A stretch of DNA of 64,000 bases from a virus. The DNA is taken from IMG/VR virus record IMGVR_UViG_3300020204_000006; one strand, given 5' to 3'. The notes beneath the pieces were generated by a model. The model searched no databases and was not told where the DNA came from. It was given only the letters and a program-made list of their open reading frames with translations. Every line of letters begins with the position of its first letter. The stretch's first letter is position 1. Positions 9,676 through 42,832 of the stretch are shown piece after piece. A program made the translations under genes and the position numbers.

Positions 9676-9692
9676 TTCAACGGGAGAGCAAA

Positions 9693-10061
9693 ATGGCAGT
9701 ATTAGAAGCACAAATTTATCTAACAATAGCAAATAACATAGCGACAGCAAGAGACAATATTGTTTCGGTTGTTGACAATTTTTATAGTAATGTTTATGAG
9801 ATAGTTTTGCTAGACGACATACAGCAGACTCTTGATCTGCTCGAGCCAATGTATAGTGCATATACTGTTTCTGATACAAGCTTGAGAACAATTACTCTTT
9901 ATCAGACTGCTATTTCTGCACTTAATAATCATATTCTGACAAGAGGTGGGTATTCTAATATAAACCAGTATCTTGCTGCAGAGGGTATAGATGTTCCTCA
10001 AACGTTCGCAGATTTGTCAAGTTTAGCTGGGTTCCCCATCGATGCATCTAATATTTCATAA
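9693..10061 (+). CDS. Hypothetical helical protein, probably virion-associated (122 aa)
   Basis: RBS GGAGAG upstream. Lies directly before the tube gene. No motif recognised. Confidence 0.8.
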   Translation: MAVLEAQIYLTIANNIATARDNIVSVVDNFYSNVYEIVLLDDIQQTLDLLEPMYSAYTVSDTSLRTITLYQTAISALNNHILTRGGYSNINQYLAAEGIDVPQTFADLSSLAGFPIDASNIS

Positions 10062-10081
10062 AATCAATTCAGAGGTAAATC

Positions 10082-11125: not shown

Positions 11126-11140
11126 CGACATATACTTTAT

Positions 11141-11719: not shown

Positions 11720-11730
11720 AAGGAGGTAAA

Positions 11731-12114
11731 ATGAAGCTTTTTATTAGTGAAAATGATAATATGGATGCAAGTTTGTATGTGGGCTACAAAGATGGTAAGT
11801 TATTTGTTTTTGATACAGATCAGGAGGCAAAAACTTTCTTTAATAAAGACAAATTCTCAAAAATAGACTTTTCTTTTAAAAAGTTAGATTTTGGTTCTTC
11901 TAGAAAGATACAAGAGAAAAGTATAGTTAATAGAGATGGTAATATGACTTTTGATATACTTTCATTTAGATATGAAAGGCTTATTAGTAGTATTAAATCA
12001 TGGAGTATTGCAGACGAAAATGGCAATCCTGTGCCAGTAAATAAGGAAAATATAGATAAAATGGAGCCTGTTTTGGCAAATGCCATACTAGGTTTATGCG
12101 ACAAATTAATGTAA
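11731..12114 (+). CDS. Tail assembly chaperone
   Basis: IKSWSIADENGNPVPVNKENIDKM is a classic TAC motif. Strong RBS AAGGAGGT. Immediately upstream of the tape measure gene. Confidence 0.8.
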   Translation: MKLFISENDNMDASLYVGYKDGKLFVFDTDQEAKTFFNKDKFSKIDFSFKKLDFGSSRKIQEKSIVNRDGNMTFDILSFRYERLISSIKSWSIADENGNPVPVNKENIDKMEPVLANAILGLCDKLM

Positions 12115-12136
12115 TTAAGTATTAAGGAGTTTTACC

Positions 12137-23477: not shown

Positions 23478-23492
23478 TAGAATTTATAATTT

Positions 23493-23708
23493 ATGAATGA
23501 GCAACAAAAAAATCAAAGCAATTTGCTTCAAAAAAGAATATCAGATGTAATTGACCAGGAAATAACATCTCGTTTGACTGGATCTGATTTTTTTAAGAGA
23601 AAGCAAGAAGGTTTTATGGGAAATGCAGGAGAGAGTTTTGGAGATTTACCGGAGGCAACAAGAACCAGCGCTGTTTTTGGCATGAGGTCTGGTTATGTTG
23701 ACAAATAA
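23493..23708 (+). CDS. Small hypothetical tail-region protein (71 aa)
   Basis: Fills the gap between hub and next gene with 15- and 2-nt spacers. No motif recognised. Confidence 0.65.
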   Translation: MNEQQKNQSNLLQKRISDVIDQEITSRLTGSDFFKRKQEGFMGNAGESFGDLPEATRTSAVFGMRSGYVDK

Positions 23709-23710
23709 AA

Positions 23711-27547: not shown

Positions 27548-28623
27548 AAACAAATCTAGATATTATATATTCTTGTTTCTTAACTAATTCTGGTTACACT
27601 CGAGCATCTTTGGGTTACATAAGATCTCTTGGATTACTTGGCAATAATGTTTATATAAATTGTGTACATAAATATCCTCAGGGTAATTCTTTTACAAAAG
27701 ATGAATTGTTTATTATAAACAAAACTTGTAGTATAGGCAAAATGGAGGGAGATGTTCTTATAGAACACGTAATCCCCAACAGATGGAGAAAATTATTAAA
27801 TGGTACCAGAAGGTATTGCGTGGCTGTATTTGAGAACGAAAAAGTAGATGATTTTTGGGTTGAATCTATAAACAGAGTTATGCATGGAGTAATATATCCC
27901 TGCAGTTGGAATAAAAAAATATTTGAAAATTGTGGTGTTAATAAGCCTGGTTTTGTAGTACCTCATTTTTTAGATGAACTTGTTTGGAAAAAACAAATTA
28001 TTACAGATTCTTTTTTTAACAAATTTTCTTTTTGTGCTATTGCGACTTGGAGAGAAAGAAAAAATTGGTCTACTTTATTTAAATCCTTTGAATTATTAAA
28101 AAATAAGCATGATTTTGTTTTAGGTATAAAAACAGATAAGTATTTTGAGCTTATTAATTATGTAAAAGAAAATCATCCAAGTATATTTTCCAATATTATT
28201 TTAGAGACTAATGAACTTGACGACCACGGTATGGTAAAAATGATGTCTAAATTTGACGTTATAGTGAATTTTTCTTTAGGAGAGGCATTTTGTATGCCTC
28301 TACTTCAGGGTTTATTCCTTGGTAAGCCATTTATTTCTACTGACATAGAGGGAGTGAAAGATTTTGCATCGCCCGAATATGGGGTTTTTATACCTTCTAA
28401 TGGAGATTTAAGAAAAGACAGACTTGATAGCTATGGTCAGTTTAGAAATAAAATTTGGCCATATTTTGATCCAGAGTCTTCTTGCAGGGCATTATTAGAA
28501 ATAATTGAAAAATATAATTACTATAAATCAAATATAGAGAAAGATCAAGATAGGTTTTTTAAAAAATTTGGTTTAAACAATAGTATAAGTAACAATTACT
28601 GGGACCCGGTTTTTAATACATGA
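27544..28623 (+). CDS. Glycosyltransferase family 4 (GT-B)
   Basis: SGYTRASLGYIRSL; FSFCAIATWRERKNW; FDVIVNFSLGEAFCMPLLQGLFLGKPFISTD, which is the GT4 EX7E motif with the second E replaced by Q. Confidence 0.85.
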   Translation: MKTNLDIIYSCFLTNSGYTRASLGYIRSLGLLGNNVYINCVHKYPQGNSFTKDELFIINKTCSIGKMEGDVLIEHVIPNRWRKLLNGTRRYCVAVFENEKVDDFWVESINRVMHGVIYPCSWNKKIFENCGVNKPGFVVPHFLDELVWKKQIITDSFFNKFSFCAIATWRERKNWSTLFKSFELLKNKHDFVLGIKTDKYFELINYVKENHPSIFSNIILETNELDDHGMVKMMSKFDVIVNFSLGEAFCMPLLQGLFLGKPFISTDIEGVKDFASPEYGVFIPSNGDLRKDRLDSYGQFRNKIWPYFDPESSCRALLEIIEKYNYYKSNIEKDQDRFFKKFGLNNSISNNYWDPVFNT

Positions 28624-31600
28624 TAAAAGCACAATTTGTCCTTAAAAATTATTCCATAAAAAATGATTCAATTCATTTAAGTTTTGAATTGAATGATTGT
28701 ATTATTGACGGGAATTATTCTGTTTCTTTTGAAGATGCTGAATCTAGTGAATCAATAAATTTTGTTGATTTTGATGGCAATAAAAAAAATATTGTTAATT
28801 TATTAAGAAATCAAAATGCTTTTCAGGGTACCATTCTTTATCCCATATCAAAAATGGGCAAAAAGAGTAATATAACATTATTCTGTAAAATACTATCAGA
28901 TAGTGGACAAAGCTTAGTTCTTGGTTCGAATATTGATGTAGTTAAAAATTCATCAAAAAATAGATCTATATATCTTGATCCTCCATTTGTTCAAGATCAT
29001 TCAAATATAAATATTTATGCAGATGGTATTCCTGATGGCAATGCTATTATAGAAATAGCAAATAAAAAATTTAAATCTAAAGTTTCTAATGGTCAATTAA
29101 ATTTTAATATTGATACTAGAACAATTCTTAAAGATAGTGACTTCTATGGTAAGACTTTAAGAAAAATGCCATTAGAAGTAAAAATTGGTGCTAATAATTT
29201 TTATGGTGAACTTGGTGTTGTCCCTAAAAGTCTTAGATCACTACAGGCAACAAATGATCCTCAAAGACCAGAGTGTGTAATAATCGATACTAGACCTGCT
29301 CAGGATCAAAGTTTTAAGTTTGAACCTATAAGCTTAGACTGTTTTCAGGAGCCAATAATAGGTCCTCTATATCAGACTGATACACAAAAATTTTCTCCTC
29401 AACTGACATCTCTTGATTCTAATTTTAAAAATTGTCATCAGGGTTTTATATCTGATTCTTCAACTCTTCTTTCTGCAATAAAAATAATTGGTACTCACGC
29501 TTCTTCAAACGTAGACAAAGAAATAGTTGATTCTGGTTTTGATTTTTACACTGTGGCCTCTGTTATTGTTTCTGATGATTCGGTACCAGTTGATGTCGCT
29601 TCTACAGTTCCAGTAGTTAAATTAGTTAAGCATCATAGCTCTACAAATTTTGATTTAACTTTTAAATTAAGAGGCGTTATAGAAAAGCCTTATTTTTATT
29701 ATCATTCTATTTATGTACCTAATAATTCTACTTTAGCGGCAACAGATAGGGGTAGCGTAGTTTTTAGGTTTCCTAATGGCAACGAGATAGCTAAAAACTT
29801 TGTATTCGGCTCTACTGATATATATTCAGTGCTAAACAAGATTAAAAATTTGATTGAAACTGATGCAGCTCTTATAAAAAATGAAATAGTTTCTGAAATA
29901 ATAAATACTGGATCTAGACAGGAATTGATAGTAAAATCAAATTTAGAATTTTCTATATACAAGGGTCAGGTTTCGTCTGAATCTAATTCTAATAAAATAC
30001 AAGTTGAGCTTAATACGAATAGGGCCCTGAGGTTATTCGTTACTGACTGCGCAGACAGAGATGTTTTGCAGTCTATATCCAAAGTTGTATTTAATACCGA
30101 GCCTTTTAAGGGCGCTATAGCGAATGTCATATCTGCTGATTCAAATTATATATCAATTGATTTCAACCCTGGATTTAATAAGCCTAATGGTTTCTTTATT
30201 TCTGACACTACATATTGCGTAGAGTTTTTTGGGGTAAAATCTACAGAAAGAAATCTTGTTCCTGAAACTTTGACATTTAACAGGATGATTTCCAAAGATG
30301 GCAGCTACATACCGACTATAAATCCTGTTGTTTCTCAAAATGGTAGAGTTTTTTGTCAGGCTGAGATAAACGGCAAATATCAAATATTTATTGATAATTA
30401 TCCCAATTGGACACAGATTACTTTTGATGGGGAGAATAGAAATCCTCATGTTATAAGTGATAAAAATGGAAACATTCATTTGTTTTTTGAGAGTGACAGA
30501 ACCGGTGAGTCTCAAATATATTATTCATGCATAGGATATGGAAGCTTCCAGTATAATGATTCTGCTCTAAATAGTTTTAGTGTAGAGCTTTCAAAAGTTT
30601 CCGAAACAGATAAATATTTCACAAGAATTGCAAAAGACATTAGGCCATTTTTTATTCTTAATGAAAGTTTTGGTATTGAAATTTTTCCTTCCGGTATTCT
30701 TTCTATAAACTCTCCTCAGCTAATACAAAATTTATATTCAGTATATTGTTTAAATGAGTTTTCCGGTCTAAGTCCAGACAATTTTCAAATAAATTATCCA
30801 GAGGGTGTTATTGCTGGTCTATCTAGTATTGTTACAATAGGCCTTGGTCAGCAAATATCAGTTCAAACTATTGTTGTATCTAAGGGTATCTCAAATCAGG
30901 GTGCAACATCTTTTGATGTTGATTTTTCTGCAAGTTTTAACGGAAAGATAAAAGCAGTTATTTATAATATAGATGATTCTATTTCTGGTCAAAATAAATT
31001 TAAGGTATTTGGTAGATCTGATTTTGTAAATTACAATCAGGATGGTCTTGGTTTTGATATCCCGAGTATGAATGATATTGCTTTTGAGGTTGTAAATAAT
31101 GACTCTTCTAATACTTCAAAAATTAATATAGCAGGAACATTTGAGGGATTATCAAGCGATATAGATATATTTATAATTAAGGTAATATTGGAAAATGTTG
31201 GTAGTGAAAATACTGCTACCTCTGCAAATTTAGTTGCCAGTCAAAACTCCTTAGGCAATCAAATATCCAATACAAATTGCATAGTTGCAGTTAACCCAAG
31301 TGAAGATTTTGGTGCTTTTAGATACCCTGTATATAGAGATACAAATGATACTTTGTTTGATGGGATTTATAGTAGTCTAAATTTGGGATACGAGTTTAAT
31401 TTTTCTCTTATTGGCAACTCATCTTCAAATGGATATAATATATCTGGTTTTGAAGAGTTTACCCAGATAAGTTTTTCTCTGTCTAATTTCTTTTCTTCTC
31501 CATCTTCATTTGATGATTTTGTTTTTGGTACTAAGCTTTTAAGTAGGTCTTTTGGTACTTTTAAAGTAAATCCCAAAAATGTTGATTACTTAAATTCTGA

Positions 31601-34600
31601 AATATCTCCAGTTTTTGAATTTTCAGGTAAGAAAAAGTTTGTTTCTGGATATTCAGTTGGCGACGGATTAAGATCTTACGGTATTTTAATAAATTGTAAA
31701 AACATAGATCAGTCAAGTGGTTTAGTAGTGCAGGGAACAATAGAATTCGACGAACCAATAGTAGACATAATTTTTGATAAACAAGAAATTGAAACTTTTG
31801 AGCAAGATGGTTTTTACGGAGAGACCATAGACCAAGATTACAATTATGATAATTCTTGTCTTGTAAAAGTTGTATTTTCGGAAGATAAAAAATCTATAAG
31901 GATCCTTGCCAAGTTTAGTGAAAACCCATGTTTCTTTGTTGTTAAAATTGGAGATATAGATGCAAAAAGCAAATTCCTCATAAAAACAAATAATCAAATA
32001 TCCGATATCGAAAATTATTTTAAATCTAAATTTAATATAGGTTCAGATTTTAAAGGAACATTTAATAACAACAGGCTTTACTACATATCATCAGATTTTA
32101 GTTTTAATAGTTTCTTGCCAGTTTTTGGCAATTTACGTTTTGATGATGATTTATTAAATCCAAATTCTCTTCTTGAGTATTCTAGTTTTAATGCTGGTTT
32201 TTCTTCTCCCTTAAATGATGTTTCTGGTATTTATAGGCTAGAAGACTATAATCATTCGGGTAGCAATATAGTATACGAAGTTATAAAAAATTTAAATATA
32301 GATGCACCTAAATCGGATCTTTATGAATTTTCTTTATTTTTGATATTTGAAAAGAAAACAGTTTTAGTAAGAAATCAAGAGACATTAGAAGATTACTGCT
32401 ACAGAGTTGGAGGTGCATTGCCAGGTTCAAGTAGCAGTAGCAGTATAGGCAGCATCAGTAGTAGTAGCAGCAGTAGTAGTAGTTCTTTTGTTCCTCTTCC
32501 ATGCATTGATGGTAATTCACCAGGTGGCTGTATGGATTTAGATGGAGATGGATTTATTGGCGGAGGCGATTTGGGCGTTTTGCTTGGTAATTGGAATAAT
32601 CCCGGAAATGGTGATTTGGATGGTGATGGCGCAGTAGGCGGTAGTGATCTTGGAATTCTTCTTGGTAATTGGGGTAGATGTGTTGAGTGTCAGTCTTCAT
32701 CTTCCTCATCTGGGGACATTTCTTCTTCAAGTTCTAGTAGTAGCGGGACTGGTCCAGGTACCTTATGTTCTTTTATAGAGGTTGAGGCTGGTGAAAAGAT
32801 CACTGGAGCCATAAAAAGTGATGGTACGCTTGTTATATGGGGAGATGTGAATAGTGAAGTTATAACTTCTTTGCCGTCTTCTCTTCCTCAAATAACTAAA
32901 ATTTCATTTGGAACTGCCCAAAGTAATGCTCATGCGGTGGCAATTTCATCTGATGGTTCAGCATTATGCTGGGGAAATAATTCACAAGGAGAATGCAACG
33001 TACCAGGTGATCTAGGAAATGTTATTTCTGTTTCTGCTGGTGCAAATCATACTTGTGCTGTAAAAGAAAATGGCGATGTTGTTTGTTGGGGCTTTAATAA
33101 TTCTGGTCAAACAAATGTTCCATCCGGTCTTAGTGGCGTTTCTAAAATTCACTCTCATGCTTCTCATAATATTGCCCTTAAAACAGATGGTACTGTATCT
33201 TGCTGGGGTTCTAATTTGCATGGTCAATGCAATGTTCCATCTGGTCTCGATGATGTAATAGAAATTTCCACTGGTAGTGGCCATTGCGTTGCGCTTAAGC
33301 GAGATGGAACTGTTGTTTGTTGGGGTTTAAATTCAAGTGGTCAGTGCAACGTTCCCTCTTTTGATGGATTGTCTGCAATCGCTATATCTGCTGGCGGTAG
33401 CTTTACCTCTGCTGTCCTGTTAGACGGAACAGTTGTTTCTTGGGGTATGAACACTTTTGGTCAAACTGATGTTCCATCTGGAATGGGATTTGTTATTAAA
33501 ATAGAATCAGGAGATGATCATACTGTAGTTCTTTTTTCTAATAATACGGTTTCTTGCTGGGGCAGGAATGATAAAAATCAATGTGATGTTCCAGATTCAT
33601 GCTTGACTCAAACTGAAATATCTAGATCTCTATCTATTAATCAATGTGATTCTTACATTGAGGGCCATGCAGAAAATGTATATTCTGGAAGATACAAAAT
33701 AGGGATTATAACAAGATCAAAGTCTTTGCCAACATTGTCTAGGGATTTGTATCCAGGTGGAACAGAGCTTCACATTTTTGATAAAATTTTTGAAAACAAA
33801 GGTTCAAATAGGATATCTATAGATGTTAATTACAGAAAGCTTGTTATTGAAGAAATGGAGCACTTGCTTTCAATAAGTAGTAAGGAAATTTTCTTCACAA
33901 ATCCATTAAAAGAAATCGACGAAAAGTATCCAAGGTTTATAAGAAATATAAGAGTTTTTTCTGACGGAGATATAGCTGGCTCCGTAACAAGATTTGCTAA
34001 TATAGAGGATAAAAGAAGACAATTTGACGCCTTCTTCGGTTCTTGCTCTAGAAGTCAAGATATACCATCTTATCTTGGCGTTCATATGATGAACGAGAAT
34101 ATAATTTTGGAACAGTCAAATATAAGAATAGGTAAACTTTCATATAAGCCTAATTCCAATATTACTCTTGATCCAAGGATATATGATTTTGAGAATATGC
34201 AATCTGTTGGGCTTTTGGAAACCCTGTCAAGAAATGAAAGTTTTGAATTTACAACTGAAGATCCCGGTGATTTTTACAATGTTTCTGAAATGTCTAGTTC
34301 TGTAGATGAGTGGTTTTCAGATAGATCTGGCTTTACTCATGTGGGTTCATATCTTGACGGTAAGCACGGCAGTAAATCAATAATTCTTCAGGACAACATT
34401 GATAGTATATCATCTGCAAATCCTGTTTTGCAAAATGACTCATATCATGCAAAGACATATTCTGAAATAAGAAACTATCAATTATCTTCTGGTTATAATG
34501 GTAAAATTTCACAAAATCTTGGTAGATCTGATTCAAGTGATTATACTTTCTTGGTTGATGCTGCAGTTATAGCGCCAAATCAGTTTATTAAAACGTATAG

Positions 34601-37600
34601 AACAATTGGACTTTTGAATGATGGAGTTATAAAATTTAATAACGTCTATTCTAAAAAATCAACATTTGATCAAAACAATAAGACTCTACAGTATGATACT
34701 TTAAAATTTTATTTTGAATCATCTTCTGCTCAAGATTATAGTCTTTTTAATCTTTCTTACCCGGCTAAGGCTGTACTGGACTCTGGAAATGAATATTTAG
34801 TGTATATAGACAACAATCATATCGCTAGATTTGTAAATTATCGCATGTCTATACCCCCAGATATCCAATTAAGAAAAGTTGCTGGTGCTACTCTCACCGT
34901 ACCTAGCAGTGACACAGGCACAACTTTCACCTTTCCTAGCAGTAGCAGTAGCAGTAGTAGTAGTAGTGATTCTTCTAGTAGTAGTAGTGATTCTTCTAGT
35001 AGTAGTAGTGAATCTAGCAGTAGTAGTAGTGAATCTAGCAGTAGTAGTAGTGAATCTAGCAGTAGTAGTAGTGAATCTAGCAGTAGTAGTAGTGAATCTA
35101 GCAGTAGTAGTAGTGAATCTAGCAGTAGTAGCCAGTCAAGTAGTAGCAGTCAGTCCAGCAGTTCTAGCAACTCCAGCAGTAGTAGCCAGTCAAGTAGTAG
35201 CAGTCAGTCCAGCAGTAGCAGCCAGTCCAGTAGTAGTAGTCAGTCAAGTAGTAGCAGTCAGTCCAGCAGTAGCAGCGGTTCCAGCAGCAGCAGCAGCGGT
35301 TCCAGCAGCAGCAGCGATTCCAGCAGTAGCAGTGGTTCCAGCAGCAGCAGCAGCGGTTCCAGCAGCAGCAGCGGTTCCAGCAGTAGCAGCGGTTCCAGCA
35401 GCAGCAGCGGTTCCAGCAGTAGCAGCGGTTCCAGCAGTAGCAGCAGCGGTTCCAGCAGCAGCAGCGATTCCAGCAGCAGCAGCGATTCCAGCAGTAGTAG
35501 CAGTTCCAGCAGTTCTAGTAGTTATTTTGAAGATATGCCTTTTGGAAATACGAAAGTTTTGATGGTTGCTTCTGGTATCGGTTTTGTAGTCGCTATTGAC
35601 GAAAATTATAAATTAATAGGAAACTATGATCCTGGTCTTGCTAGTGCACAAATTCAGTCTGACATTAATACTATTAATGCATTGTATACAAGTGATGACG
35701 ATGCAATATACGCAGAATACGTATCTGCTGGATCTGATTTCTTTGCAATTAAAACATTAAATGGATACTGCGAGGTTTATGGAAATACTTATTCTTCCTC
35801 TCTACTTCCACCTTCTGGACTTAAAATCATAACATTTTCTTGTGGAGGTGATTTTATAGTTGCGATTAGTAGTACCGGTTCATTGGAAGCTTGGGGAAAT
35901 GATAGCAATATAAATAACAATGTCCCATCTGGTTTGTTTACGTCAGTTTCTTGTGGGTCTTCTCACGCATTAGCTATAGACGTTGATGGTTCTGTGTATG
36001 CATGGGGCGACAACTCTTTTAACCAATCTAATGTTCCATCAGGATTAAAAGCCGTTGAAATTTCTGCTGGTTCAAAGTTCTCATTTGCAATAGATTCTGA
36101 ATTTAAAGTTGTTTATTGGGGAGAAATTGATTTTCAGTATAATTCTGGGACCATACCTACCTTTGCTTGTTCTGTTTGGTGCAGAAACGATACTGTTTTA
36201 ATAGGCGGATTTGCAAATGAATGGAACCTTTTTACCGATATTTCTACGCACAAATATGAATCGTTTTTGTATTATTTGATAGAGCATCCTATTAGATATA
36301 GAAGTAATTCTGATATATGGGCTCCTGGTCCAGTTATAGATCTTTTTAGGCTTTATGATTCTAATGCATCAGTTGAGACAAATCTTAATAGATATTGTAG
36401 GTTGTTAGGATACAAAGACAATATTTGTTCTAGTGATTTTAAGATAAATGATCCATTAGTGCTATCGCAAATACCTGTTTCTGTTTCTGCAAACTCTTTA
36501 TCAAAGAATATAGATGCAAAAAGATTTGAAGAGGATAGAATAGGGCTATGCTATCAGTCAAATATAAAAAATTATAGATCGGACATATATTATAGGGGCT
36601 ACCTAAACCATTTTTCTATATTTGGAAAAAATTATTATCTTTCAAAAGATATTCAAAATCAAATATCTTCTTTCGAACCTTCAATTGGAAATGACTACTA
36701 TGGAAATTCTATAGTAGCATGGAGATCTCAAGATTCTACAGCTTCAAAAGAAAACAATTACATATACTCTTCTTTTATATATAATGGATCTTCTGACATT
36801 AACAAATGCCTTCTTGATGAAATGCTTTATAAGTTAAAAGATTTCTTTATTTACGATCCATACGATCCATATTCATTTAAAATATTGCCGCAAGTTTGTG
36901 AGGTTGAATTTACTTTTAAGGCACCAGCTTCTAATACATTTAATTTCTTTGTAGATTTTTATTATGACGATGAATTTAAGAATAAGGCTTATTCTTATTC
37001 CTCTTCTGTAGATCCTTCTATTTGGTCTGTTGATGGAGTAAATGCATATGCTGATGGCCATTATGCTCAAGCTGGTGATGAATTACTTGTAAGATTCCAT
37101 GCTTCTGATATTGAAGAATTGTCAAATAAAGTTTTATTTGTTAAAATAGGTTTTAATTCTCAGTCTTCATCACTCAAACATGGCCTTGTCTCTCAAAATA
37201 ATAATGAAATTAAGGACCCACTTGCTGTTTCATCAGATATATCTGGAAATAATCCAAATTTAAATTCAAACTCTAAGATTTGGGTAATGCCAGAAATTAT
37301 ATCTTCTGATATAAATTTGCCAAAACAGGAATTTATAAATTACAAGTCAGAAGATGGCATACTGAGATTTAATTTTTATGATAATAGCAGGTCGTCATTA
37401 GATGGCATTTCAATAGGAGAAACAGCTAAATCTTTTTATGTCCATATACAAAGAGGTAGTGGGAACTCTGAATTCTCAGATTTTGTTTTACGTTTTGGTG
37501 GCACTGTATCCTATGTTGGTTTTACCAAAGAAGATTTAGATATATCTTCTTCTTACTCAATTGGTGAAGGTGTTGCATATCCTCAATCAAATTCATCAGT

Positions 37601-39740
37601 TTCTAATGGACTGGTAGATGGAGAATTTATATCTATAGATTCTTCAGGAAGAAAAATAATGTTTAGGTTAAAAACAAAACAAAATGGTCTCAGATCTTTA
37701 AGAGTCGTAATTAAGGAGAATAAATTTATTTCCGGCAATTTTAATTCTGTATTTTTATGCAACTCAAAAGAATCAGCAGAATGTATTACTCAAATTCCTT
37801 TTATAAATAAAACTTCAAATTCTTCTTTATTTAAAATTAAAATGGATATTTATTCAGACGAGGATTGCCTAAATTACGTTGGATCTTTTGATTCAAGTGT
37901 AAACGTAAATTGCTTTACAAATGGGATAATGGGATATTATCAGTGTCCTTCTAAAAATATTATATACGTTAACTTTATTCCTCCCGTTATGGAATACATA
38001 AATATGTCTGGTTTTGAACTATCAAATAGTAGCATAGTTTCAATTGAAAAAGCTGATCTAATTTCAGAAAACATATCTAGAAAGTATTTACAGCCAGACA
38101 TAAAATATCATTTTAAGGCTTATGCGGTTTTTGACAGTGGAGAATCTACGTTTGTCACAAAATCTAATTTTAAATGTGAGAGTAATTCAAAGAGATCTTT
38201 AGAATATACTTCTCCAGTTCTTGTTTCTTCTGGTAAAAATGTATTGAACAATAATTTGGAAATATGCTCTCTTGCTGGAGGAGAGTCGGTACTATCATGG
38301 TCTGACACAAGATTTAATAAGCAGAGAGGAACAAGTCTATCTTTCTCTTCTAGTCAATTTAGTTGCATGTTTGCGACCGTTGATATGTCAAATAGATTTG
38401 TAAATTCTTCTTCTCAGGGTGGATATGATAGACATTTTAAATTTGTTTCTGGAGACACAGAACAAACATTTATATCAGAGTATAAATTTATTGCAGACAA
38501 TTTGGGTAATTTCTCTTCAATAGGTAGAACGGGTGAAAAAATATTATCTTCTCATATGGCACTTGGAACACAAAGAACGCCAAGGGCATTTGTGCCAATA
38601 TATAATGAGGGTAATGGTAGAACATTTTTTGATCAAACAAATAAATTTGAAACAATAACAAATTATGATGAATTTAGAAGAATAAGGGTAGTTAAAGATT
38701 TCGTTGATTATTTTTCTACAATTTCTGAGGACATAATATATCCAGTAGTTTCTGACTGTTTTGTGCATCTTGATGTTATAGGTGTTCCTGGAACGCAAGC
38801 TGTAAGAATAAAAAATGAAAATGATCAAGATTTCTCTTCATGGCTTCACATACAGGAACCTAATTCTGTTTATATTCAAAATAAATCTCAGCCAGAAAAA
38901 GATTTTATATCGGAATTTTCTCCTTTCTTTTTAGAAAGAGAAAGATTTGTTGTTCCATGGGTTTTAAGCTCTGGAAATGGCATCAAAAAAGTATGCATAC
39001 AGATACTAACGGCATTTGGTGTAACTAATACATTCTGTATAGATATAGTTGTAAATTATAAAAAATTAGATTACGAAGTAGAATTTTATTATGGGGTTGA
39101 TGATGCGCCTAGTTCTTCTAGCTCCTCTAGTTCTTCTGGTGGCTTTAGAATACCTTCCTCTTTCTATAGAAGATATCCTGTCTTGAATAATAAAACCATA
39201 TACGATCCAGAAACAGGAACAAGAATTTTTGAAAATGACTTAAGATCATTGAACATAAATGAAACATATGATATATCAAAAATAATAGCAGTCATTACTT
39301 TTAAAGACAAAAATAGAGTCGAAAGAATAAATAATCTTATGAGATATCCATTCTTCTCATCTAGGTCAAATAATCAGGTAATTGGCGCTAAATTGTATCA
39401 GCAGGGTATAGAGATAATAGATGTTCCGCTAACTAAAATATCTGATGGTGTTTATGAAGGAGAATTCCAAATAAAACAAAGTGATGGAATTGCTTATAAC
39501 GATGGTTTGGCATCTTTGCAGATTACTATTCCTGGTGAGTGTTTTATGCCAAACATATTTGATTTATTTTCTGAATTTAGGCAGTATAGATCTGCAAACT
39601 TGAATACAGAAATTAAAGTAGTTAATTATGCTAGCTATATACTTGATTTCTATAACAAAGATGATATTAAAAACAGTTTTGGTTCATCTGGTTATTATTC
39701 TGGAACTTTTAATTTTTTGAAAAATAATTCTGAAAGATGA
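28620..39740 (+). CDS. Giant mosaic tail-associated protein (3706 aa): BNR-like blades, dockerin-like domain, two RCC1 modules, poly-Ser linkers, Ig-like C-terminus
   Basis: NPHVISDKNGNIHLFFESDRTGESQIYYS (BNR-like); DLDGDG x2; seven WG-containing RCC1 repeats; 195-aa Ser tract; second degenerate RCC1 set. Confidence 0.8.
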   Translation: MIKAQFVLKNYSIKNDSIHLSFELNDCIIDGNYSVSFEDAESSESINFVDFDGNKKNIVNLLRNQNAFQGTILYPISKMGKKSNITLFCKILSDSGQSLVLGSNIDVVKNSSKNRSIYLDPPFVQDHSNINIYADGIPDGNAIIEIANKKFKSKVSNGQLNFNIDTRTILKDSDFYGKTLRKMPLEVKIGANNFYGELGVVPKSLRSLQATNDPQRPECVIIDTRPAQDQSFKFEPISLDCFQEPIIGPLYQTDTQKFSPQLTSLDSNFKNCHQGFISDSSTLLSAIKIIGTHASSNVDKEIVDSGFDFYTVASVIVSDDSVPVDVASTVPVVKLVKHHSSTNFDLTFKLRGVIEKPYFYYHSIYVPNNSTLAATDRGSVVFRFPNGNEIAKNFVFGSTDIYSVLNKIKNLIETDAALIKNEIVSEIINTGSRQELIVKSNLEFSIYKGQVSSESNSNKIQVELNTNRALRLFVTDCADRDVLQSISKVVFNTEPFKGAIANVISADSNYISIDFNPGFNKPNGFFISDTTYCVEFFGVKSTERNLVPETLTFNRMISKDGSYIPTINPVVSQNGRVFCQAEINGKYQIFIDNYPNWTQITFDGENRNPHVISDKNGNIHLFFESDRTGESQIYYSCIGYGSFQYNDSALNSFSVELSKVSETDKYFTRIAKDIRPFFILNESFGIEIFPSGILSINSPQLIQNLYSVYCLNEFSGLSPDNFQINYPEGVIAGLSSIVTIGLGQQISVQTIVVSKGISNQGATSFDVDFSASFNGKIKAVIYNIDDSISGQNKFKVFGRSDFVNYNQDGLGFDIPSMNDIAFEVVNNDSSNTSKINIAGTFEGLSSDIDIFIIKVILENVGSENTATSANLVASQNSLGNQISNTNCIVAVNPSEDFGAFRYPVYRDTNDTLFDGIYSSLNLGYEFNFSLIGNSSSNGYNISGFEEFTQISFSLSNFFSSPSSFDDFVFGTKLLSRSFGTFKVNPKNVDYLNSEISPVFEFSGKKKFVSGYSVGDGLRSYGILINCKNIDQSSGLVVQGTIEFDEPIVDIIFDKQEIETFEQDGFYGETIDQDYNYDNSCLVKVVFSEDKKSIRILAKFSENPCFFVVKIGDIDAKSKFLIKTNNQISDIENYFKSKFNIGSDFKGTFNNNRLYYISSDFSFNSFLPVFGNLRFDDDLLNPNSLLEYSSFNAGFSSPLNDVSGIYRLEDYNHSGSNIVYEVIKNLNIDAPKSDLYEFSLFLIFEKKTVLVRNQETLEDYCYRVGGALPGSSSSSSIGSISSSSSSSSSSFVPLPCIDGNSPGGCMDLDGDGFIGGGDLGVLLGNWNNPGNGDLDGDGAVGGSDLGILLGNWGRCVECQSSSSSSGDISSSSSSSSGTGPGTLCSFIEVEAGEKITGAIKSDGTLVIWGDVNSEVITSLPSSLPQITKISFGTAQSNAHAVAISSDGSALCWGNNSQGECNVPGDLGNVISVSAGANHTCAVKENGDVVCWGFNNSGQTNVPSGLSGVSKIHSHASHNIALKTDGTVSCWGSNLHGQCNVPSGLDDVIEISTGSGHCVALKRDGTVVCWGLNSSGQCNVPSFDGLSAIAISAGGSFTSAVLLDGTVVSWGMNTFGQTDVPSGMGFVIKIESGDDHTVVLFSNNTVSCWGRNDKNQCDVPDSCLTQTEISRSLSINQCDSYIEGHAENVYSGRYKIGIITRSKSLPTLSRDLYPGGTELHIFDKIFENKGSNRISIDVNYRKLVIEEMEHLLSISSKEIFFTNPLKEIDEKYPRFIRNIRVFSDGDIAGSVTRFANIEDKRRQFDAFFGSCSRSQDIPSYLGVHMMNENIILEQSNIRIGKLSYKPNSNITLDPRIYDFENMQSVGLLETLSRNESFEFTTEDPGDFYNVSEMSSSVDEWFSDRSGFTHVGSYLDGKHGSKSIILQDNIDSISSANPVLQNDSYHAKTYSEIRNYQLSSGYNGKISQNLGRSDSSDYTFLVDAAVIAPNQFIKTYRTIGLLNDGVIKFNNVYSKKSTFDQNNKTLQYDTLKFYFESSSAQDYSLFNLSYPAKAVLDSGNEYLVYIDNNHIARFVNYRMSIPPDIQLRKVAGATLTVPSSDTGTTFTFPSSSSSSSSSSDSSSSSSDSSSSSSESSSSSSESSSSSSESSSSSSESSSSSSESSSSSSESSSSSQSSSSSQSSSSSNSSSSSQSSSSSQSSSSSQSSSSSQSSSSSQSSSSSGSSSSSSGSSSSSDSSSSSGSSSSSSGSSSSSGSSSSSGSSSSSGSSSSSGSSSSSSGSSSSSDSSSSSDSSSSSSSSSSSSYFEDMPFGNTKVLMVASGIGFVVAIDENYKLIGNYDPGLASAQIQSDINTINALYTSDDDAIYAEYVSAGSDFFAIKTLNGYCEVYGNTYSSSLLPPSGLKIITFSCGGDFIVAISSTGSLEAWGNDSNINNNVPSGLFTSVSCGSSHALAIDVDGSVYAWGDNSFNQSNVPSGLKAVEISAGSKFSFAIDSEFKVVYWGEIDFQYNSGTIPTFACSVWCRNDTVLIGGFANEWNLFTDISTHKYESFLYYLIEHPIRYRSNSDIWAPGPVIDLFRLYDSNASVETNLNRYCRLLGYKDNICSSDFKINDPLVLSQIPVSVSANSLSKNIDAKRFEEDRIGLCYQSNIKNYRSDIYYRGYLNHFSIFGKNYYLSKDIQNQISSFEPSIGNDYYGNSIVAWRSQDSTASKENNYIYSSFIYNGSSDINKCLLDEMLYKLKDFFIYDPYDPYSFKILPQVCEVEFTFKAPASNTFNFFVDFYYDDEFKNKAYSYSSSVDPSIWSVDGVNAYADGHYAQAGDELLVRFHASDIEELSNKVLFVKIGFNSQSSSLKHGLVSQNNNEIKDPLAVSSDISGNNPNLNSNSKIWVMPEIISSDINLPKQEFINYKSEDGILRFNFYDNSRSSLDGISIGETAKSFYVHIQRGSGNSEFSDFVLRFGGTVSYVGFTKEDLDISSSYSIGEGVAYPQSNSSVSNGLVDGEFISIDSSGRKIMFRLKTKQNGLRSLRVVIKENKFISGNFNSVFLCNSKESAECITQIPFINKTSNSSLFKIKMDIYSDEDCLNYVGSFDSSVNVNCFTNGIMGYYQCPSKNIIYVNFIPPVMEYINMSGFELSNSSIVSIEKADLISENISRKYLQPDIKYHFKAYAVFDSGESTFVTKSNFKCESNSKRSLEYTSPVLVSSGKNVLNNNLEICSLAGGESVLSWSDTRFNKQRGTSLSFSSSQFSCMFATVDMSNRFVNSSSQGGYDRHFKFVSGDTEQTFISEYKFIADNLGNFSSIGRTGEKILSSHMALGTQRTPRAFVPIYNEGNGRTFFDQTNKFETITNYDEFRRIRVVKDFVDYFSTISEDIIYPVVSDCFVHLDVIGVPGTQAVRIKNENDQDFSSWLHIQEPNSVYIQNKSQPEKDFISEFSPFFLERERFVVPWVLSSGNGIKKVCIQILTAFGVTNTFCIDIVVNYKKLDYEVEFYYGVDDAPSSSSSSSSSGGFRIPSSFYRRYPVLNNKTIYDPETGTRIFENDLRSLNINETYDISKIIAVITFKDKNRVERINNLMRYPFFSSRSNNQVIGAKLYQQGIEIIDVPLTKISDGVYEGEFQIKQSDGIAYNDGLASLQITIPGECFMPNIFDLFSEFRQYRSANLNTEIKVVNYASYILDFYNKDDIKNSFGSSGYYSGTFNFLKNNSER
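32529..32681 (+). repeat. Duplicated Ca-binding dockerin-like motif (2 x 26 aa) inside the giant protein
   Basis: DLDGDGFIGGGDLGVLLGNW at 32535 and DLDGDGAVGGSDLGILLGNWG at 32613, spaced 78 nt apart, flanked by Cys. Confidence 0.9.
32763..33600 (+). repeat. Seven RCC1/BLIP-II repeats (one complete beta-propeller)
   Basis: Seven units of the form V..ISAG..H..A...DG.V.CWG.N..GQ.NVP: LVIWG, ALCWG, VVCWG, VSCWG, VVCWG, VVSWG, VSCWG. Confidence 0.9.
34938..35522 (+). repeat. In-frame tandem repeat encoding a 195-aa poly-Ser tract
   Basis: GATTCTTCTAGTAGTAGTAGT x2 (34968-35009), GAATCTAGCAGTAGTAGTAGT x5 perfect (35010-35114) plus one shorter copy, then 18-nt QS5 units and 18/21-nt GS5/DS5 units. 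Confidence 0.97.
35550..36210 (+). repeat. Second, degenerate RCC1-like repeat set (about 5 blades)
   Basis: FSCGGDFIVAISSTGSLEAWG; VSCGSSHALAIDVDGSVYAWGDNSFNQSNVPSGL; EISAGSKFSFAIDSEFKVVYWG; plus two weaker upstream blades. Confidence 0.75.
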
Positions 39741-39782
39741 GTTCATGTATTTTTTTTGTAATTATACTCTAATGGAGATATT

Positions 39783-41288
39783 ATGGCAGATTTAGTTGCA
39801 AAAAACATATTGTCGCCTTCGGGTGGTGAGGAGTTTTTTCCTGATCAATCTGTTTTAGTAACTTTTGATAACATAAGCTATCCGGACGACCAATTTTATT
39901 TTGATCTTTTTGTAACTTTAAATTATGATGGGATAGATAATTCCAATTGGGATTTTATAGCAAGACTTCCAATAGGTGTTCGCGAATATGAACTTTTTTT
40001 TAAAAAACCTATTTTTGGTAATAATATTAGACTGGCTACATGTGGTGTTTCTAGAAAGGGCATAAGATCAATTAAAAATGTTATGCCAAGGTCTTTTTCT
40101 TTTCGTCCTAGATTAGTAAAGGATCCAGTGCTAATCAATCCTGTTTCCAACAAATCATATTCAAATACTATAGAAATTTTGATAGACAATTCTTATTTAA
40201 ATTATTCTGAAAAAAGTAACATAAGATTTTATTCTTATTTTTCTTCTAACTTTTTAGGCATATTAAATTCCCCAATAGCCGAGAGGGTTGATTCTAGTAT
40301 TTCTCAAATAAAATGGAACATAGCAGATCTTCCCAACTCTGATGATTATGAAATTTTATGCTATTATTCGGACGATTTAGGGAACAGATCTTCGGATGTT
40401 GTAATTAAAAATTTAAACATAACAAATCCTGGACTTTGCATAATTGACACGGAACCTCCACAAACTGCTATAAAAATACAAAATGATTCTGAATACATAT
40501 CAGATCCAAATGTATCAATAAAGCTTTATAGTTATGATGACACAACTGGAATAAATGGATTTGTTTTTAAAGAACTTAGATTTAATGAAGAAAATGAAAT
40601 ACAAGAAGTAAAAAAGTCTGAACCAAGAAATTATGATATTAACAATTTTTATACTGTTTTAGATGAAGATGGTAAAACCTACATAGGTGCTTTGGTTGAA
40701 GATGTAGCTGGTAATAGAACTGATTATTCACTGGAGTATAATTCTTCACTTACTTATAACATAAATTATTTTAGATCAAGTAACCTTAATATAGAAAATT
40801 TTAATGTAACTGCTTCATCTTCAGATGGTGTTTCGGCGTATTTTGCAGTAGAAAAAAATGGTTTATATTATTTGTATAGGAAAACTGAAATATTTACTAT
40901 GGTAAAGGAGCTACCTTTGCCCTGTATCGCCATAAAAAACTCTGCAGACGACGTTGTAATGTCTTTTGAGAACTCTAATAGGTCACTTGAAATAAAAAGA
41001 TTTAGTAATAATACTTTATTTGAAATATTTAAAAGTAGCTCAAAAAACACCATGTGCAATTCAATTGAATTTTATAAAAATAGTTATTATCTTGGTTGTG
41101 ATGATGGCTCACTTTACAGGCTTAACGCATCGTCTGTTTCTATTGTCGCAGACATTAGTACATTTAAAAAGCCAATAAGGCTTATTGAAAAAACAAAAAA
41201 TAATGTAATGAATATATACGTTAATTTAGGGGCAGAAATATATTCTTTTGATGGACAAAACATAGTCAGGAGCGATATATTAATATGA
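39783..41288 (+). CDS. Tail-associated protein with FN3/Ig-like domains and C-terminal propeller-like region (501 aa)
   Basis: RBS GGAG. YEILCYYSDDLGNRS; DTEPPQTAIKIQND....DPNVSIKL.SYDDTTGI...VEDVAGN are Ig-like signatures. Confidence 0.6.
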   Translation: MADLVAKNILSPSGGEEFFPDQSVLVTFDNISYPDDQFYFDLFVTLNYDGIDNSNWDFIARLPIGVREYELFFKKPIFGNNIRLATCGVSRKGIRSIKNVMPRSFSFRPRLVKDPVLINPVSNKSYSNTIEILIDNSYLNYSEKSNIRFYSYFSSNFLGILNSPIAERVDSSISQIKWNIADLPNSDDYEILCYYSDDLGNRSSDVVIKNLNITNPGLCIIDTEPPQTAIKIQNDSEYISDPNVSIKLYSYDDTTGINGFVFKELRFNEENEIQEVKKSEPRNYDINNFYTVLDEDGKTYIGALVEDVAGNRTDYSLEYNSSLTYNINYFRSSNLNIENFNVTASSSDGVSAYFAVEKNGLYYLYRKTEIFTMVKELPLPCIAIKNSADDVVMSFENSNRSLEIKRFSNNTLFEIFKSSSKNTMCNSIEFYKNSYYLGCDDGSLYRLNASSVSIVADISTFKKPIRLIEKTKNNVMNIYVNLGAEIYSFDGQNIVRSDILI

Positions 41289-42832
41289 CAAATGAAGAAA
41301 ACTATTTAAATTTAGAAATATATGGCAAAAAAAATGAATATTCTTCTACTATAGAGGGTAAAAATCCTATTTTTAGAATAAGGTACGATAAAGAAAATGT
41401 AAACTCTTTTTCAAGCAATATTTCTGGGTATATAAAAGCAAAGTTTTTAGTAGAAAATTCTAATAATTTTATATATTTAAATGGATATTTTTATGATAAA
41501 AATGGAAATGAATTTAAAAAAGTTGAATATTTATTAAGTGGTAATAATATATACAACATGTACTCTTACTTTAAGAGTACTCCTGGCATAGGAATCAGAA
41601 TAGAAACTTCAAATCTTAGTTTTCTTTTTAGTGACTTTAAGCAGTATGAATCTGTTTATTATAATGGTTGGTATTATATATGTGCTTCTAAAGGATCCTT
41701 CCAAAAAAATTCTTATAGATCTGCTTTTTTAGGATCTTCTACATTTGATAGTTCTTTATATTATGACATGTTCTACACTATGTCTGACATTAATTCTCAG
41801 ACATATCTTCCAAGCGAATTTAAAAATAGTATTGGCGGTTACCTTTCTGATGGAAATGTTTTTGGAAATAGTTTTTTAATAGAAAACATGTACCCAGATT
41901 CTATAAATATAAGTATTCATGATCATGGTATATCTGATGGCCTTCAGCAAGGTAGTGTTATTGAAATAACAATAGATGAAGAAATAATGTCTGTTGAATT
42001 TATGAGAGCTGAGCAGCAGGGTAATATTGCTTTTTTTAAGATAATAGAAAGAGGCCTTTATTTTACTCCTATTCAGGGCCATATTATAAATTCTAAAGTA
42101 AAAAGAAATGATAAAACAGATATATTTAATTTTACATTTGATGAGTCTGGTCAGTATTTTACTCAGTTTAGATGTCTTGGTTTAAATATTAATGCTCAAC
42201 AGGGTGATTTCGTATGCTCAAACATATCTGCAAGATTTTCATGGGAGTCATCTCCATATTATACATATGATTTTGCTTTTGAAATACCATTATTTGAGAG
42301 AGTTATTTCAAGTAGTATATCAGGAAACAATTTTTCAATTAATGTTAACGAACTCTTGAAGGATTTATTGCTTTCAAGGTTTAATTCTAATTCAGTTTTT
42401 TCTCCATCACTTCTTGTTGGTATGCCTATAGTTGTTAATTCTACTGATGGCTCTTCTCATAAAAGATATATATCTAGTTATAACTCATCAACAAATCAAA
42501 TTATTTTTAATGAACCACTTCCATTTTCAATATCAATTAGTGATCAGGTTATTTTTGGTCCATCTCCCTCTAGGTCTTCAGTAAAAGGTATATCTATGGA
42601 TGAAAGCTCAGATCCTAGATTTAGTGGCTTCCTGGGTGTTGTTAGATATCAGGCAATAGGTGCATTGCAAAATATTTTATTACCAATACCTCCAATATTT
42701 ACACAAAGGTATTCATCAACCATAAAATCAATGGATACAATTTATATTTGGATTAAACGAGTTATTAAAAATAATAATATAAATAATTTCGACCAAAGAC
42801 TTTTTATGAATTTTGATTGCGAGGTAAATTAA
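41285..42832 (+). CDS. Hypothetical tail-region protein (515 aa)
   Basis: ATGA overlap with the previous gene. Beta-rich. No family recognised. Confidence 0.7.
   Translation: MTNEENYLNLEIYGKKNEYSSTIEGKNPIFRIRYDKENVNSFSSNISGYIKAKFLVENSNNFIYLNGYFYDKNGNEFKKVEYLLSGNNIYNMYSYFKSTPGIGIRIETSNLSFLFSDFKQYESVYYNGWYYICASKGSFQKNSYRSAFLGSSTFDSSLYYDMFYTMSDINSQTYLPSEFKNSIGGYLSDGNVFGNSFLIENMYPDSINISIHDHGISDGLQQGSVIEITIDEEIMSVEFMRAEQQGNIAFFKIIERGLYFTPIQGHIINSKVKRNDKTDIFNFTFDESGQYFTQFRCLGLNINAQQGDFVCSNISARFSWESSPYYTYDFAFEIPLFERVISSSISGNNFSINVNELLKDLLLSRFNSNSVFSPSLLVGMPIVVNSTDGSSHKRYISSYNSSTNQIIFNEPLPFSISISDQVIFGPSPSRSSVKGISMDESSDPRFSGFLGVVRYQAIGALQNILLPIPPIFTQRYSSTIKSMDTIYIWIKRVIKNNNINNFDQRLFMNFDCEVN

What the first reader, a model, noticed from the sequence alone, without database searches (positions are those of the whole stretch)
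32529..32681. Planctomycete-type dockerin inside a phage tail protein: possible docking mimic
Seen: C-x-DLDGDGFIGGGDLGVLLGNW...DLDGDGAVGGSDLGILLGNWG-x-C, a duplicated EF-hand-like Ca loop, isolated between two poly-Ser spacers. Recalled: the DLxGDG.V.G.DLG.LLG.WG form is the C-terminal signature of many secreted Phycisphaerales (Planctomycetota) proteins, thought to anchor them at the cell surface. Inference: the virion carries the host's own anchoring tag on a flexible tether and may dock on the host scaffold that normally captures dockerin-tagged proteins, giving a receptor strategy by mimicry.
Basis: partly seen in the sequence, partly recalled or inferred. Interest (0 to 1): 0.85.

Follow-up and report, generated by a model that had tools for sequence, protein, structure and literature searches.

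The report
Phycisphaerales-type dockerin in jumbo-phage protein
A 51-residue calcium-loop "dockerin" module, otherwise the C-terminal tag on 100 or more secreted proteins per genome in some freshwater Phycisphaerales, sits on serine tethers inside a 3,706-residue protein of an AT-rich jumbo phage, which points to a possible host and a possible, untested, attachment trick.

Summary
Window 32529-32681 (+) encodes a Cys-bracketed, duplicated Ca-loop/helix module between two poly-Ser runs, at aa 1304-1354 of the 3,706-aa ORF 28620-39740.

It is a real dockerin-family module:
- It scores 67.7 bits (E 3e-21) against an HMM built only from bacterial copies.
- The AlphaFold model (pLDDT 83) superposes on dockerin 2y3n_B (TM 0.72-0.79, rmsd 1.5 A).

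- The 80 best genome matches are almost all Phycisphaerales/Planctomycetota MAGs (55-73% identity).
- There the module lies within 15 aa of the stop in 99 of 107 ORFs.
- It occurs 97-172 times per genome, but only in a subset of the order.

The module and the following RCC1 propeller form a roughly 460-aa cassette that orthologous phage proteins lack. Phycisphaerales carry RCC1 + C-terminal dockerin proteins. Related AT-rich jumbo phages carry the same module type in a neighbouring gene.

The mimicry mechanism is untested:
- The host is unknown, and GC is 32% in the phage against 51-74% in the bacteria.
- No consistent cohesin partner was found.

The scan also noted this stretch in an overlapping window of the same genome, not on other DNA.

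Verdict: real, unusual, partly supported. Interest 0.62.

The parts
28620..39740 (+). Giant ORF, 3,706 aa. The N-terminal (aa 28-1262), middle (1728-1968) and C-terminal (2368-3688) parts are conserved in related jumbo phages. No signal peptide at the N-terminus, by inspection.
32406..33800 (+). Lineage-specific cassette, aa about 1263-1727: Ser tract, dockerin, Ser tract, RCC1 propeller 1. It is absent from the orthologues of 3,279 aa (G007) and 3,295 aa (ERZ contigs).
   Evidence: blastp segment map
32427..32486 (+). Poly-Ser tether 1
32529..32681 (+). Dockerin module from Cys1304 to Cys1354. GC3 is 0.235, against 0.212 for the whole gene.
32535..32570 (+). Ca loop 1 (DLDGDGFIGGGD), followed by helix LGVLLGNW
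32613..32648 (+). Ca loop 2 (DLDGDGAVGGSD), followed by helix LGILLGNWG
32694..32744 (+). Poly-Ser tether 2
32757..33569 (+). RCC1 beta-propeller 1 (Pfam RCC1_2 E 9e-64). It is 40-44% identical over its full length, and up to 54-55% locally, to Phycisphaerales RCC1 proteins that end in the dockerin tag. It is only 35-38% identical to the phage's own RCC1 2.
34938..35522 (+). Long Ser array (aa 2107-2301), a second insertion relative to the orthologues
35742..36419 (+). RCC1 region 2, the copy shared with the orthologous phage proteins
10082..11125 (+). Tail-tube gene that marks the structural module upstream (context)
   Evidence: Pfam PF18906 E 1e-13; phrog_290
41285..42832 (+). 515-aa gene in the slot where related phages carry dockerin-bearing proteins of 651-1,656 aa. 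It has no dockerin here.

Best explanation
SHOWN. The segment is a compact dockerin module: two EF-hand-like Ca loops, two helices and a Cys-Cys bracket. It belongs to the subfamily that a subset of Phycisphaerales uses as the extreme C-terminal tag of about 100-170 mostly secreted proteins per genome. Together with an RCC1 propeller of the kind fused to that tag in those bacteria, it forms a roughly 460-aa cassette. The cassette is inserted through poly-Ser linkers between conserved domains of a giant protein in the tail-gene block of an AT-rich jumbo phage. Its codon usage is fully adapted to the phage, so the capture is old or has long been maintained. Sister phages keep the same module type in a neighbouring gene. 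INFERRED. The protein is part of the virion. The tethered module binds, with Ca2+, the same still-unidentified cell-surface acceptor that holds the bacterium's own tagged exoproteins. That would give first, reversible adsorption to Phycisphaerales cells, with the RCC1 propeller adding a second binding face.
For: - Module identity.
- Taxonomic source: (79 loci, 55-73% identity, almost all Phycisphaerales/Planctomycetota).
- Narrow range: 26 of 81 genomes of the order hit, with a bimodal copy number; 0 of 120 other genomes sampled evenly across the phylum at E<=1e-8.
- C-terminal tag present in high copy.
- Insertion of the cassette relative to orthologues.
- Seven of the 8 best Phycisphaerales RCC1 matches end in the tag.
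- Phage copies stay close to the bacterial consensus. The window's copy is 73% identical to its best bacterial copy against 61% to the best copy in another phage. Copies in sister phages reach 76-83% to bacterial ones. GC3 is nonetheless that of the phage. This fits selection for the same binding surface.
- Because the module is kept at internal and N-terminal positions in phages, it acts as a binding domain there, not as a C-terminal sorting signal.
- Recurrence on phage structural proteins: a gene in the T4-like gp7 slot, between Gp6-like and Gp8-like genes, carries 19 tandem modules.
- A fragment of a sister phage is deposited inside a 'Planctomycetaceae bacterium' MAG.
- A 494-kb relative carries at least 71 tRNAs. 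From general knowledge, phiKZ (about 37% GC) infects Pseudomonas (about 66% GC), so a large GC gap is possible for jumbo phages.
Against: - GC is 0.317 in the phage against 0.51-0.74 in the bacterial loci.
- There is no direct host link. DNA searches of 40 kb of the window against 301 genomes of the order gave only chance or low-complexity matches. No tail-tube homologue was found in 251 genomes.
- No acceptor is known. Pfam cohesin exceeds its cut-off in 1 of 5 dockerin-rich genomes, and that cohesin has no homologue in the other four.
- Virion location is inferred from gene order only.
- Five more distant relatives of the phage gave no dockerin hit.
- The window's copy falls below the Pfam Dockerin_1 cut-off (14.0 against 22.9 bits).
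- A consensus-like short domain will look close to many family members regardless of function.
Confidence: 0.4

Rival explanations
1. Generic adhesion or decoration cassette. The RCC1 propeller is the real binder, of glycan or protein on cells or particles. The dockerin is only a Ca-stabilised connector that came along with it, and no host tag system is mimicked.
For: RCC1 repeats occur in a PHROG 'tail protein' family, and the orthologues already carry an RCC1 domain. RCC1 propellers are widespread surface modules in many phyla. No cohesin partner was found.
Against: Sister phages keep dockerin modules without an adjacent RCC1, some of them N-terminal or in tandem. A T4-like phage carries 19 dockerins in one baseplate-slot protein. 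Phage copies remain 60-83% identical to bacterial copies.
Confidence: 0.25
2. The host is a low-GC bacterium. The module reached this phage clade indirectly, from phage to phage in the same lakes, and now binds something unrelated to Phycisphaerales.
For: GC is 0.31-0.37 in all jumbo-phage carriers. There is no spacer or prophage link to the order. The cassette's codon usage is fully ameliorated.
Against: This module subtype is confined to part of one order. Among the best 150 representatives, each low-GC-looking carrier that was traced (P0003, P0004/P0157, P0009) sits on a phage contig, not in a low-GC bacterium. RCC1 1 also points to the same bacteria.
Confidence: 0.13
3. Virion self-assembly. 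The dockerin plugs into a cohesin-like module on another phage protein and clips accessory giant proteins onto the tail, as in a cellulosome.
For: In sister phages the module is at the very N-terminus of the neighbouring large protein, a place where an attachment domain would sit. The block encodes many multi-domain proteins on linkers.
Against: Pfam finds no cohesin in the window's proteins at E<=0.001, nor in five related phage records at E<=0.1. The search is by sequence only, so divergent cohesins would be missed.
Confidence: 0.12
4. Neutral passenger: a relic of a horizontal capture with no present function.
For: It is a single copy. It is absent from the orthologues and from five more distant relatives.
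Against: All Ca-ligand positions, both Trp residues and both Cys residues are intact, even though codon usage is fully ameliorated. The model is confident. The same module type persists in several sister phages.
Confidence: 0.1

Closest known systems
Cellulosomal type I dockerins (Pfam PF00404), e.g. PDB 2y3n chain B, Bacteroides cellulosolvens dockerin in complex with cohesin
   Same: Duplicated 12-residue Ca loop plus helix. It is the best PDB sequence hit (E 0.009, both repeats aligned). It is also the best structural hit (TM 0.72/0.79, rmsd 1.5 A over 54 columns).
   Different: The module is shorter: 51 aa, with loop starts 26 residues apart. It has a Trp after each helix and a Cys-Cys bracket. 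Its own Pfam score is below the cut-off. No cohesin is seen nearby, and there is no link to cellulose degradation.
C-terminal dockerin tag of freshwater Phycisphaerales (weakly hits NCBIfam NF041540 'GC-type dockerin domain-anchored protein'; 'planctosome' hypothesis of Andrei et al. 2019, PMC6461901)
   Same: Same subfamily consensus (CP-DLNGDG-V-DGADLGLLLG-WG ... WG-CP). Scores 67.7 bits against the bacterial-only HMM and reaches 73% identity. It is partnered with RCC1, as in the bacterial proteins.
   Different: In the bacteria the tag is the last 50-55 residues of secreted proteins. Here it is internal, between Ser linkers, in a leaderless 3,706-aa phage protein, and it comes before rather than after the RCC1 domain. 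The score is just under the bacterial range (5th percentile 75 bits). NF041540 gives no hit on the window's copy and only sub-threshold hits on bacterial copies.
Accessory adhesion domains displayed on phage particles (Ig-like/Hoc-type decoration, carbohydrate-binding modules on tail fibres); general knowledge
   Same: A small, autonomous, host-derived binding fold grafted on flexible linkers into structural-module proteins.
   Different: The fold is a dockerin, which is known as a protein-protein plug. It is homologous to a mass-used tag of one bacterial group, which would make the target a host protein-anchoring system rather than a glycan.
Uncharacterised viral dockerin-like proteins in BFVD, e.g. 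A0A516MFS6 and 'Dockerin type 1 [Myoviridae sp. ctagO6]'
   Same: Same predicted fold in uncultivated viruses (TM 0.71, 41% identity for the best).
   Different: No function or host link has been described for them. None was found discussed in the paper searches.

Membership tests
Dockerin type I domain (Pfam PF00404) | Two tandem segments, each a 12-residue EF-hand-like loop with Asp/Asn at positions 1, 3, 5 and Asp at 12, followed by a helix | tested here: met
   Loops are DLDGDGFIGGGD and DLDGDGAVGGSD. The model places helices at residues 21-29 and 47-55 of the 67-aa query.
Dockerin type I domain (Pfam PF00404) | Score at or above the Pfam gathering threshold | tested here: inconclusive
   The window's own score is 14.0 bits against a 22.9 cut-off, E 0.06. 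Bacterial homologues at 55-73% identity pass, with 24.7-30.2 bits. Atlas neighbours carry PF00404 in 36-63% of members.
Dockerin type I domain (Pfam PF00404) | Dockerin fold | tested here: met
   AlphaFold2 model: pLDDT 83, core above 90. Top Foldseek PDB hits are dockerins: 2y3n_B (TM 0.72/0.79, rmsd 1.5 A) and 2ozn_B (rmsd 1.3 A). This rests on a predicted model, not a solved structure.
Dockerin type I domain (Pfam PF00404) | Ca2+-dependent folding and binding to a cohesin | not testable with these tools
This needs a biochemical assay.
Phycisphaerales C-terminal dockerin tag | Match to a profile built from the bacterial copies only | tested here: met
   67.7 bits, E 3e-21. Bacterial members have median 88.5 and 5th percentile 75.1 bits; other phage copies score 21-56 bits.
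Phycisphaerales C-terminal dockerin tag | Trp after each helix (LL-x-x-WG) and a Cys at each end | tested here: met
   Direct comparison with the HMM consensus.
Phycisphaerales C-terminal dockerin tag | Position at the extreme C-terminus of the carrier protein | tested here: not met
   In bacteria, 99 of 107 ORFs have it within 15 aa of the stop. In the window it is at aa 1304-1354 of 3,706.
Phycisphaerales C-terminal dockerin tag | Carrier has an N-terminal signal peptide | tested here: not met
   58 of 87 bacterial carriers have signal-like N-termini by a crude hydrophobicity test. The phage protein starts MIKAQFVLKNYSIKND, with no hydrophobic leader (by inspection).
Cohesin-dockerin assembly system (cellulosome-like) | A cohesin partner encoded by the same genome | tested here: not met
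   No Pfam cohesin at E<=0.001 in the window's large proteins. None at E<=0.1 in five related phage records. The test is by sequence only.
Cohesin-dockerin assembly system (cellulosome-like) | Cohesin partners present in the candidate host genomes | tested here: inconclusive
   PF00963 is over its cut-off in 1 of 5 dockerin-rich genomes: a secreted protein in G013 with a cohesin-like module followed by a domain that looked HYR-like by eye (L115). There are two sub-threshold hits in G012 and none in three genomes. The G013 module has no homologue in the other four.

The most novel reading that the evidence does not exclude
A clade of about 31-37% GC jumbo phages infects 51-74% GC freshwater Phycisphaerales. 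These phages adsorb by presenting the host's own exoprotein-anchoring tag on serine tethers. The receptor would then be the still-unknown acceptor that holds more than 100 tagged surface proteins, a target the host could hardly lose. The phage module could serve as a probe to find that acceptor.
Probability: 0.3. Interest if true: 0.85.

Novelty: new variant of a known kind. Interest (0 to 1): 0.62.

Why it matters
- Very few phages of Planctomycetota are described, and none was found in the paper searches here. A domain subtype confined to part of one order gives a concrete, testable host hypothesis for a clade of uncultivated jumbo phages, despite a GC gap of about 35 points.
- The C-terminal dockerin tag marks roughly 100-170 proteins per genome in these lake bacteria, yet it has no demonstrated partner. 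That phages keep the module at internal and N-terminal positions argues it is a binding domain rather than a sorting signal. A phage-derived module would make a ready affinity probe.
- If the mimicry holds, it would be a receptor strategy aimed at a host protein-anchoring hub rather than a glycan or porin.

Tried and rejected
- **CRISPR or DNA link to the order.** Window 1-20000 and 20001-40000 were each searched against 301 genomes.
  - The first search gave two chance-level hits. One was 32 nt at 91% identity, in a locus with no repeat array.
  - The second gave hits in 57 genomes. Nearly all fall on the Ser array, and the top hit (L185), the only one inspected, is a (QQQQD)n low-complexity repeat read in another frame.
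  - Two short hits inside the dockerin and RCC1 coding regions only echo the protein homology.
- **Tail-tube protein against 251 genomes of the order:** no match, which is uninformative.
- **Host flank in the 'provirus' relative G001:** none was seen in the first 400 kb. There is only an internal stretch at 49-51% GC.
- **Broken DNRLRE-like ORF (62243-62665) as a host clue:** no match in 5 Phycisphaerales genomes.
- **Global search with RCC1 1:** 4,123 hits, ranked by repeat number and spread over several phyla. It was not useful for taxonomy.
- **Near-identical copies for a selection test:** none found in IMG/VR or JGI metagenomes.
- **Volactin-like gene in five other dockerin-bearing viral records:** no match, so their relation to this clade is unknown.
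  - The first alignment was too diverse for the genome scan.
  - PMC3035643 is not held.
- **E. coli phage paper that mentions 'dockerin'** (PMC5967307): it refers to a carbohydrate-binding-module template, so it is not a precedent.
Full report
**1. Observation**

Window 32400-32810 (+) translates to a poly-Ser run, a short Cys-containing stretch, then C-M-DLDGDGFIGGGDLGVLLGNW-NNPGNG-DLDGDGAVGGSDLGILLGNWG-R-C, followed by a second poly-Ser run. The stretch is aa 1304-1354 of the single 3,706-aa ORF 28620-39740. Both loops have Asp at positions 1, 3, 5 and 12.

A six-frame HMM scan finds no second copy in the 64 kb.

**2. What the module is**

Curated libraries see it only weakly:
- Pfam Dockerin_1 gives 14.0 bits against a cut-off of 22.9, alongside EF-hand models at similar E-values.
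- NCBIfam gives nothing.
- The best PDB sequence hit is a cellulosomal dockerin, 2y3n_B, with both repeats aligned (E 0.009).

An exhaustive phmmer search of 1.84 billion cluster representatives shows a large family: 6,960 hits at E<=1e-3 and 132 at E<=1e-10. Many hits are 60-70% identical short fragments ending in WG-x-CP.

An AlphaFold2 model built on 17 aligned sequences is confident (mean pLDDT 83, core above 90) and shows two loop-helix units. Its top structural neighbours in the PDB are dockerins:
- 2y3n_B: TM 0.72/0.79, rmsd 1.5 A over 54 columns.
- 2ozn_B: rmsd 1.3 A.
- Several type II X-dockerins.

Foldseek E-values are weak, as expected for about 50 residues.

**3. Who else has it**

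A scan of one genome per prokaryote species returned 409 confirmed matches. The best 80 (79 distinct loci, 55-73% identical to the window's copy) are almost all MAGs labelled Phycisphaerales, Phycisphaerae, Phycisphaera or Planctomycetota, largely from lakes. A few are labelled Limnohabitans or Chitinophaga, and those loci are equally GC-rich. The nearest ESM Atlas clusters are Dockerin_1 clusters with Planctomycetota commonest.

In these loci:
- 99 of 107 ORFs carry the module within 15 aa of the stop codon, mostly 0-2 aa from it.
- 58 of 87 ORFs with a visible N-terminus have a signal-peptide-like start by a crude test.
- Carriers hold varied domains, including galactose-binding-like, pre-peptidase C-terminal, FG-GAP and CBM56. 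Some of their dockerins pass the Pfam cut-off. Two give sub-threshold hits to NCBIfam NF041540, 'GC-type dockerin domain-anchored protein'.

Copy number and range:
- Five genomes of 2.7-4.4 Mb hold 97-172 copies each.
- In an even sample of the order, 26 of 81 genomes match the window's copy, bimodally: 17 genomes have 34 or more copies, and most others have none.
- In an even sample of the phylum, none of 120 other genomes matches at E<=1e-8.

It marks a subset of one order.

Andrei et al. 2019 (PMC6461901) reported cohesin/dockerin modules in freshwater Phycisphaerae (Nemodlikiaceae) and proposed a hypothetical 'planctosome'. No experimental follow-up was found.

**4. The phage and the host protein**

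The window is 31.7% GC and has no tRNA genes. It carries a tail-tube gene followed by a run of co-oriented giant ORFs. Relatives in IMG/VR reach 494 kb, and that 494-kb relative has at least 71 tRNA genes. No whole genome is held for the window.

The giant protein has orthologues in all relatives tested. Segment mapping shows that aa about 1263-1727 (Ser, dockerin, Ser, RCC1 propeller 1) and the Ser array at aa 2107-2301 are insertions. They are absent from the 3,279-aa and 3,295-aa orthologues, which have no dockerin and no Ser tracts.

RCC1 propeller 1 is 40-44% identical over about 270 aa, and up to 54-55% locally, to RCC1 proteins of the dockerin-rich Phycisphaerales genomes. Seven of the eight best matches end in the tag. 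It is only 35-38% identical to the phage's own second RCC1 region. This tests and supports an earlier scan note, e1-5829836. The order of parts is reversed here (dockerin then RCC1), so the capture was not a simple copy of one gene end.

GC3 of the module is 0.235, against 0.212 for the gene. The capture is therefore not recent.

**5. Other phages**

The low-GC-looking top hits that were traced turn out to be phage proteins.
- P0009 (1,656 aa, three modules, one N-terminal) lies on 245-250-kb contigs syntenic with the window, two genes downstream of the giant orthologue.
- The P0004/P0157 cluster occupies the same slot on a 138-kb contig. Its modules sit between Ser linkers.
- One member of that cluster sits on a 5.2-kb contig deposited as part of a 'Planctomycetaceae bacterium' MAG. 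This is a weak co-binning hint.
- The closest IMG/VR relative with enough sequence (G007) has an N-terminal and a later module in the same slot.
- A 224-kb viral contig at 35% GC has two giant ORFs with 2-3 internal, Cys-bracketed modules.
- A T4-like contig (49% GC) has 19 tandem modules in the gene between Gp6-like and Gp8-like baseplate genes.
- Five more distant relatives gave no hit.
- BFVD holds a few uncharacterised viral proteins with the same fold.

Most full-length phage copies are at least as close to bacterial copies (59-83% identity) as to copies in other phages.

**6. Mechanism**

*Shown:*
- what the module is;
- its bacterial source group;
- its arrival as part of an inserted cassette;
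- its recurrence in structural-module proteins of several phages.

*Inferred:*
- that it is displayed on the virion on flexible Ser tethers;
- that it binds, with Ca2+, the acceptor used by the bacterial tag.

Phages retain the module where it cannot act as a C-terminal signal. That argues the module is a binding domain.

*Against the mimicry reading:*
- The GC gap is 0.32 against 0.51-0.74. From general knowledge, phiKZ on Pseudomonas shows that such gaps occur in jumbo phages, and the large tRNA set of the relative fits a phage that translates independently of host codon bias.
- No spacer or prophage link was found.
- No consistent cohesin was found. One Pfam hit exceeds the cut-off, in a secreted protein of G013 whose cohesin-like module is followed by a domain that looked HYR-like by eye. 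It has no homologue in four other tag-rich genomes. No cohesin was found in the phages.

**7. Verdict**

The docking-mimic mechanism remains an attractive, untested inference, which I put at about 0.4 as stated.

The module is a known kind (a dockerin) in a new setting. It is internal, Ser-tethered, in giant structural-module proteins of AT-rich jumbo phages, and matches a tag confined to part of the Phycisphaerales.

Noticed in passing
window 5887-6939 (+): A 350-aa protein matches Pfam PF25216 'Volactin' (an actin-fold family) over its full length, E 3e-57. It lies between head/neck-region genes and the tail tube. It is conserved at 54-65% identity in 13 IMG/VR contigs of up to 494 kb.
   Followed up: partly
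window 61930-62190 (+), 3' end of ORF 58564-62226: The 1,220-aa protein ends in a poly-Pro/(SPPP)n tail of about 90 aa, encoded by CCG/CCA codons. Local GC reaches 0.76, with strong C skew, in a 32% GC genome.
   Followed up: partly
G001 (IMGVR_UViG_3300005681_000225), loci L126-L145: This 494-kb relative carries at least 71 tRNA genes, including one with a CTA anticodon. It also has a stretch of about 40 kb (about 290-330 kb) at 49-51% GC; the one 20-kb segment listed (300-320 kb, L141) has few long ORFs under code 11.
   Followed up: no
L113 10001-16447: On a T4-like contig (GC 0.49), the 2,148-aa gene between Gp6-like and Gp8-like baseplate genes carries 19 tandem dockerin modules of the same subtype.
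   Followed up: partly
L148 3-10865 and L150 2655-10697 (IMGVR_UViG_3300042326_002445, 224 kb, GC 0.35): Two giant ORFs (at least 3,621 and 2,681 aa) carry 2-3 internal, Cys-bracketed dockerin modules. The relation to the window's clade is unknown, since no volactin-like match was found in the part held.
   Followed up: partly
NCBI PHX63393.1 (P0153), 5.2-kb contig: A fragment syntenic with the window's phage clade (dockerin protein, 355-aa gene, start of a giant gene) is deposited inside a 'Planctomycetaceae bacterium' MAG. This is either a binning artefact or a weak host hint.
   Followed up: partly
L115 1-1296 (-), genome G013: A Lake Mendota Phycisphaerales MAG encodes a secreted protein with a Pfam cohesin-like module (25.3 bits) followed by a domain that looked HYR-like by eye. 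It resembles the 'adaptor' of the published planctosome model.
   Followed up: partly
window 62243-62665 (+): An ORF is interrupted by one in-frame TAA at 62300; an earlier scan note calls it DNRLRE-like. Local GC is 0.40-0.43. No match was found in five Phycisphaerales genomes.
   Followed up: partly
L018-L023, L149, L152, L153: Mid-GC viral contigs (0.42-0.56) encode small proteins (192-339 aa) that end in the same dockerin tag, as bacterial carriers do. They may be phage or prophage genes that use the host's tag system.
   Followed up: no
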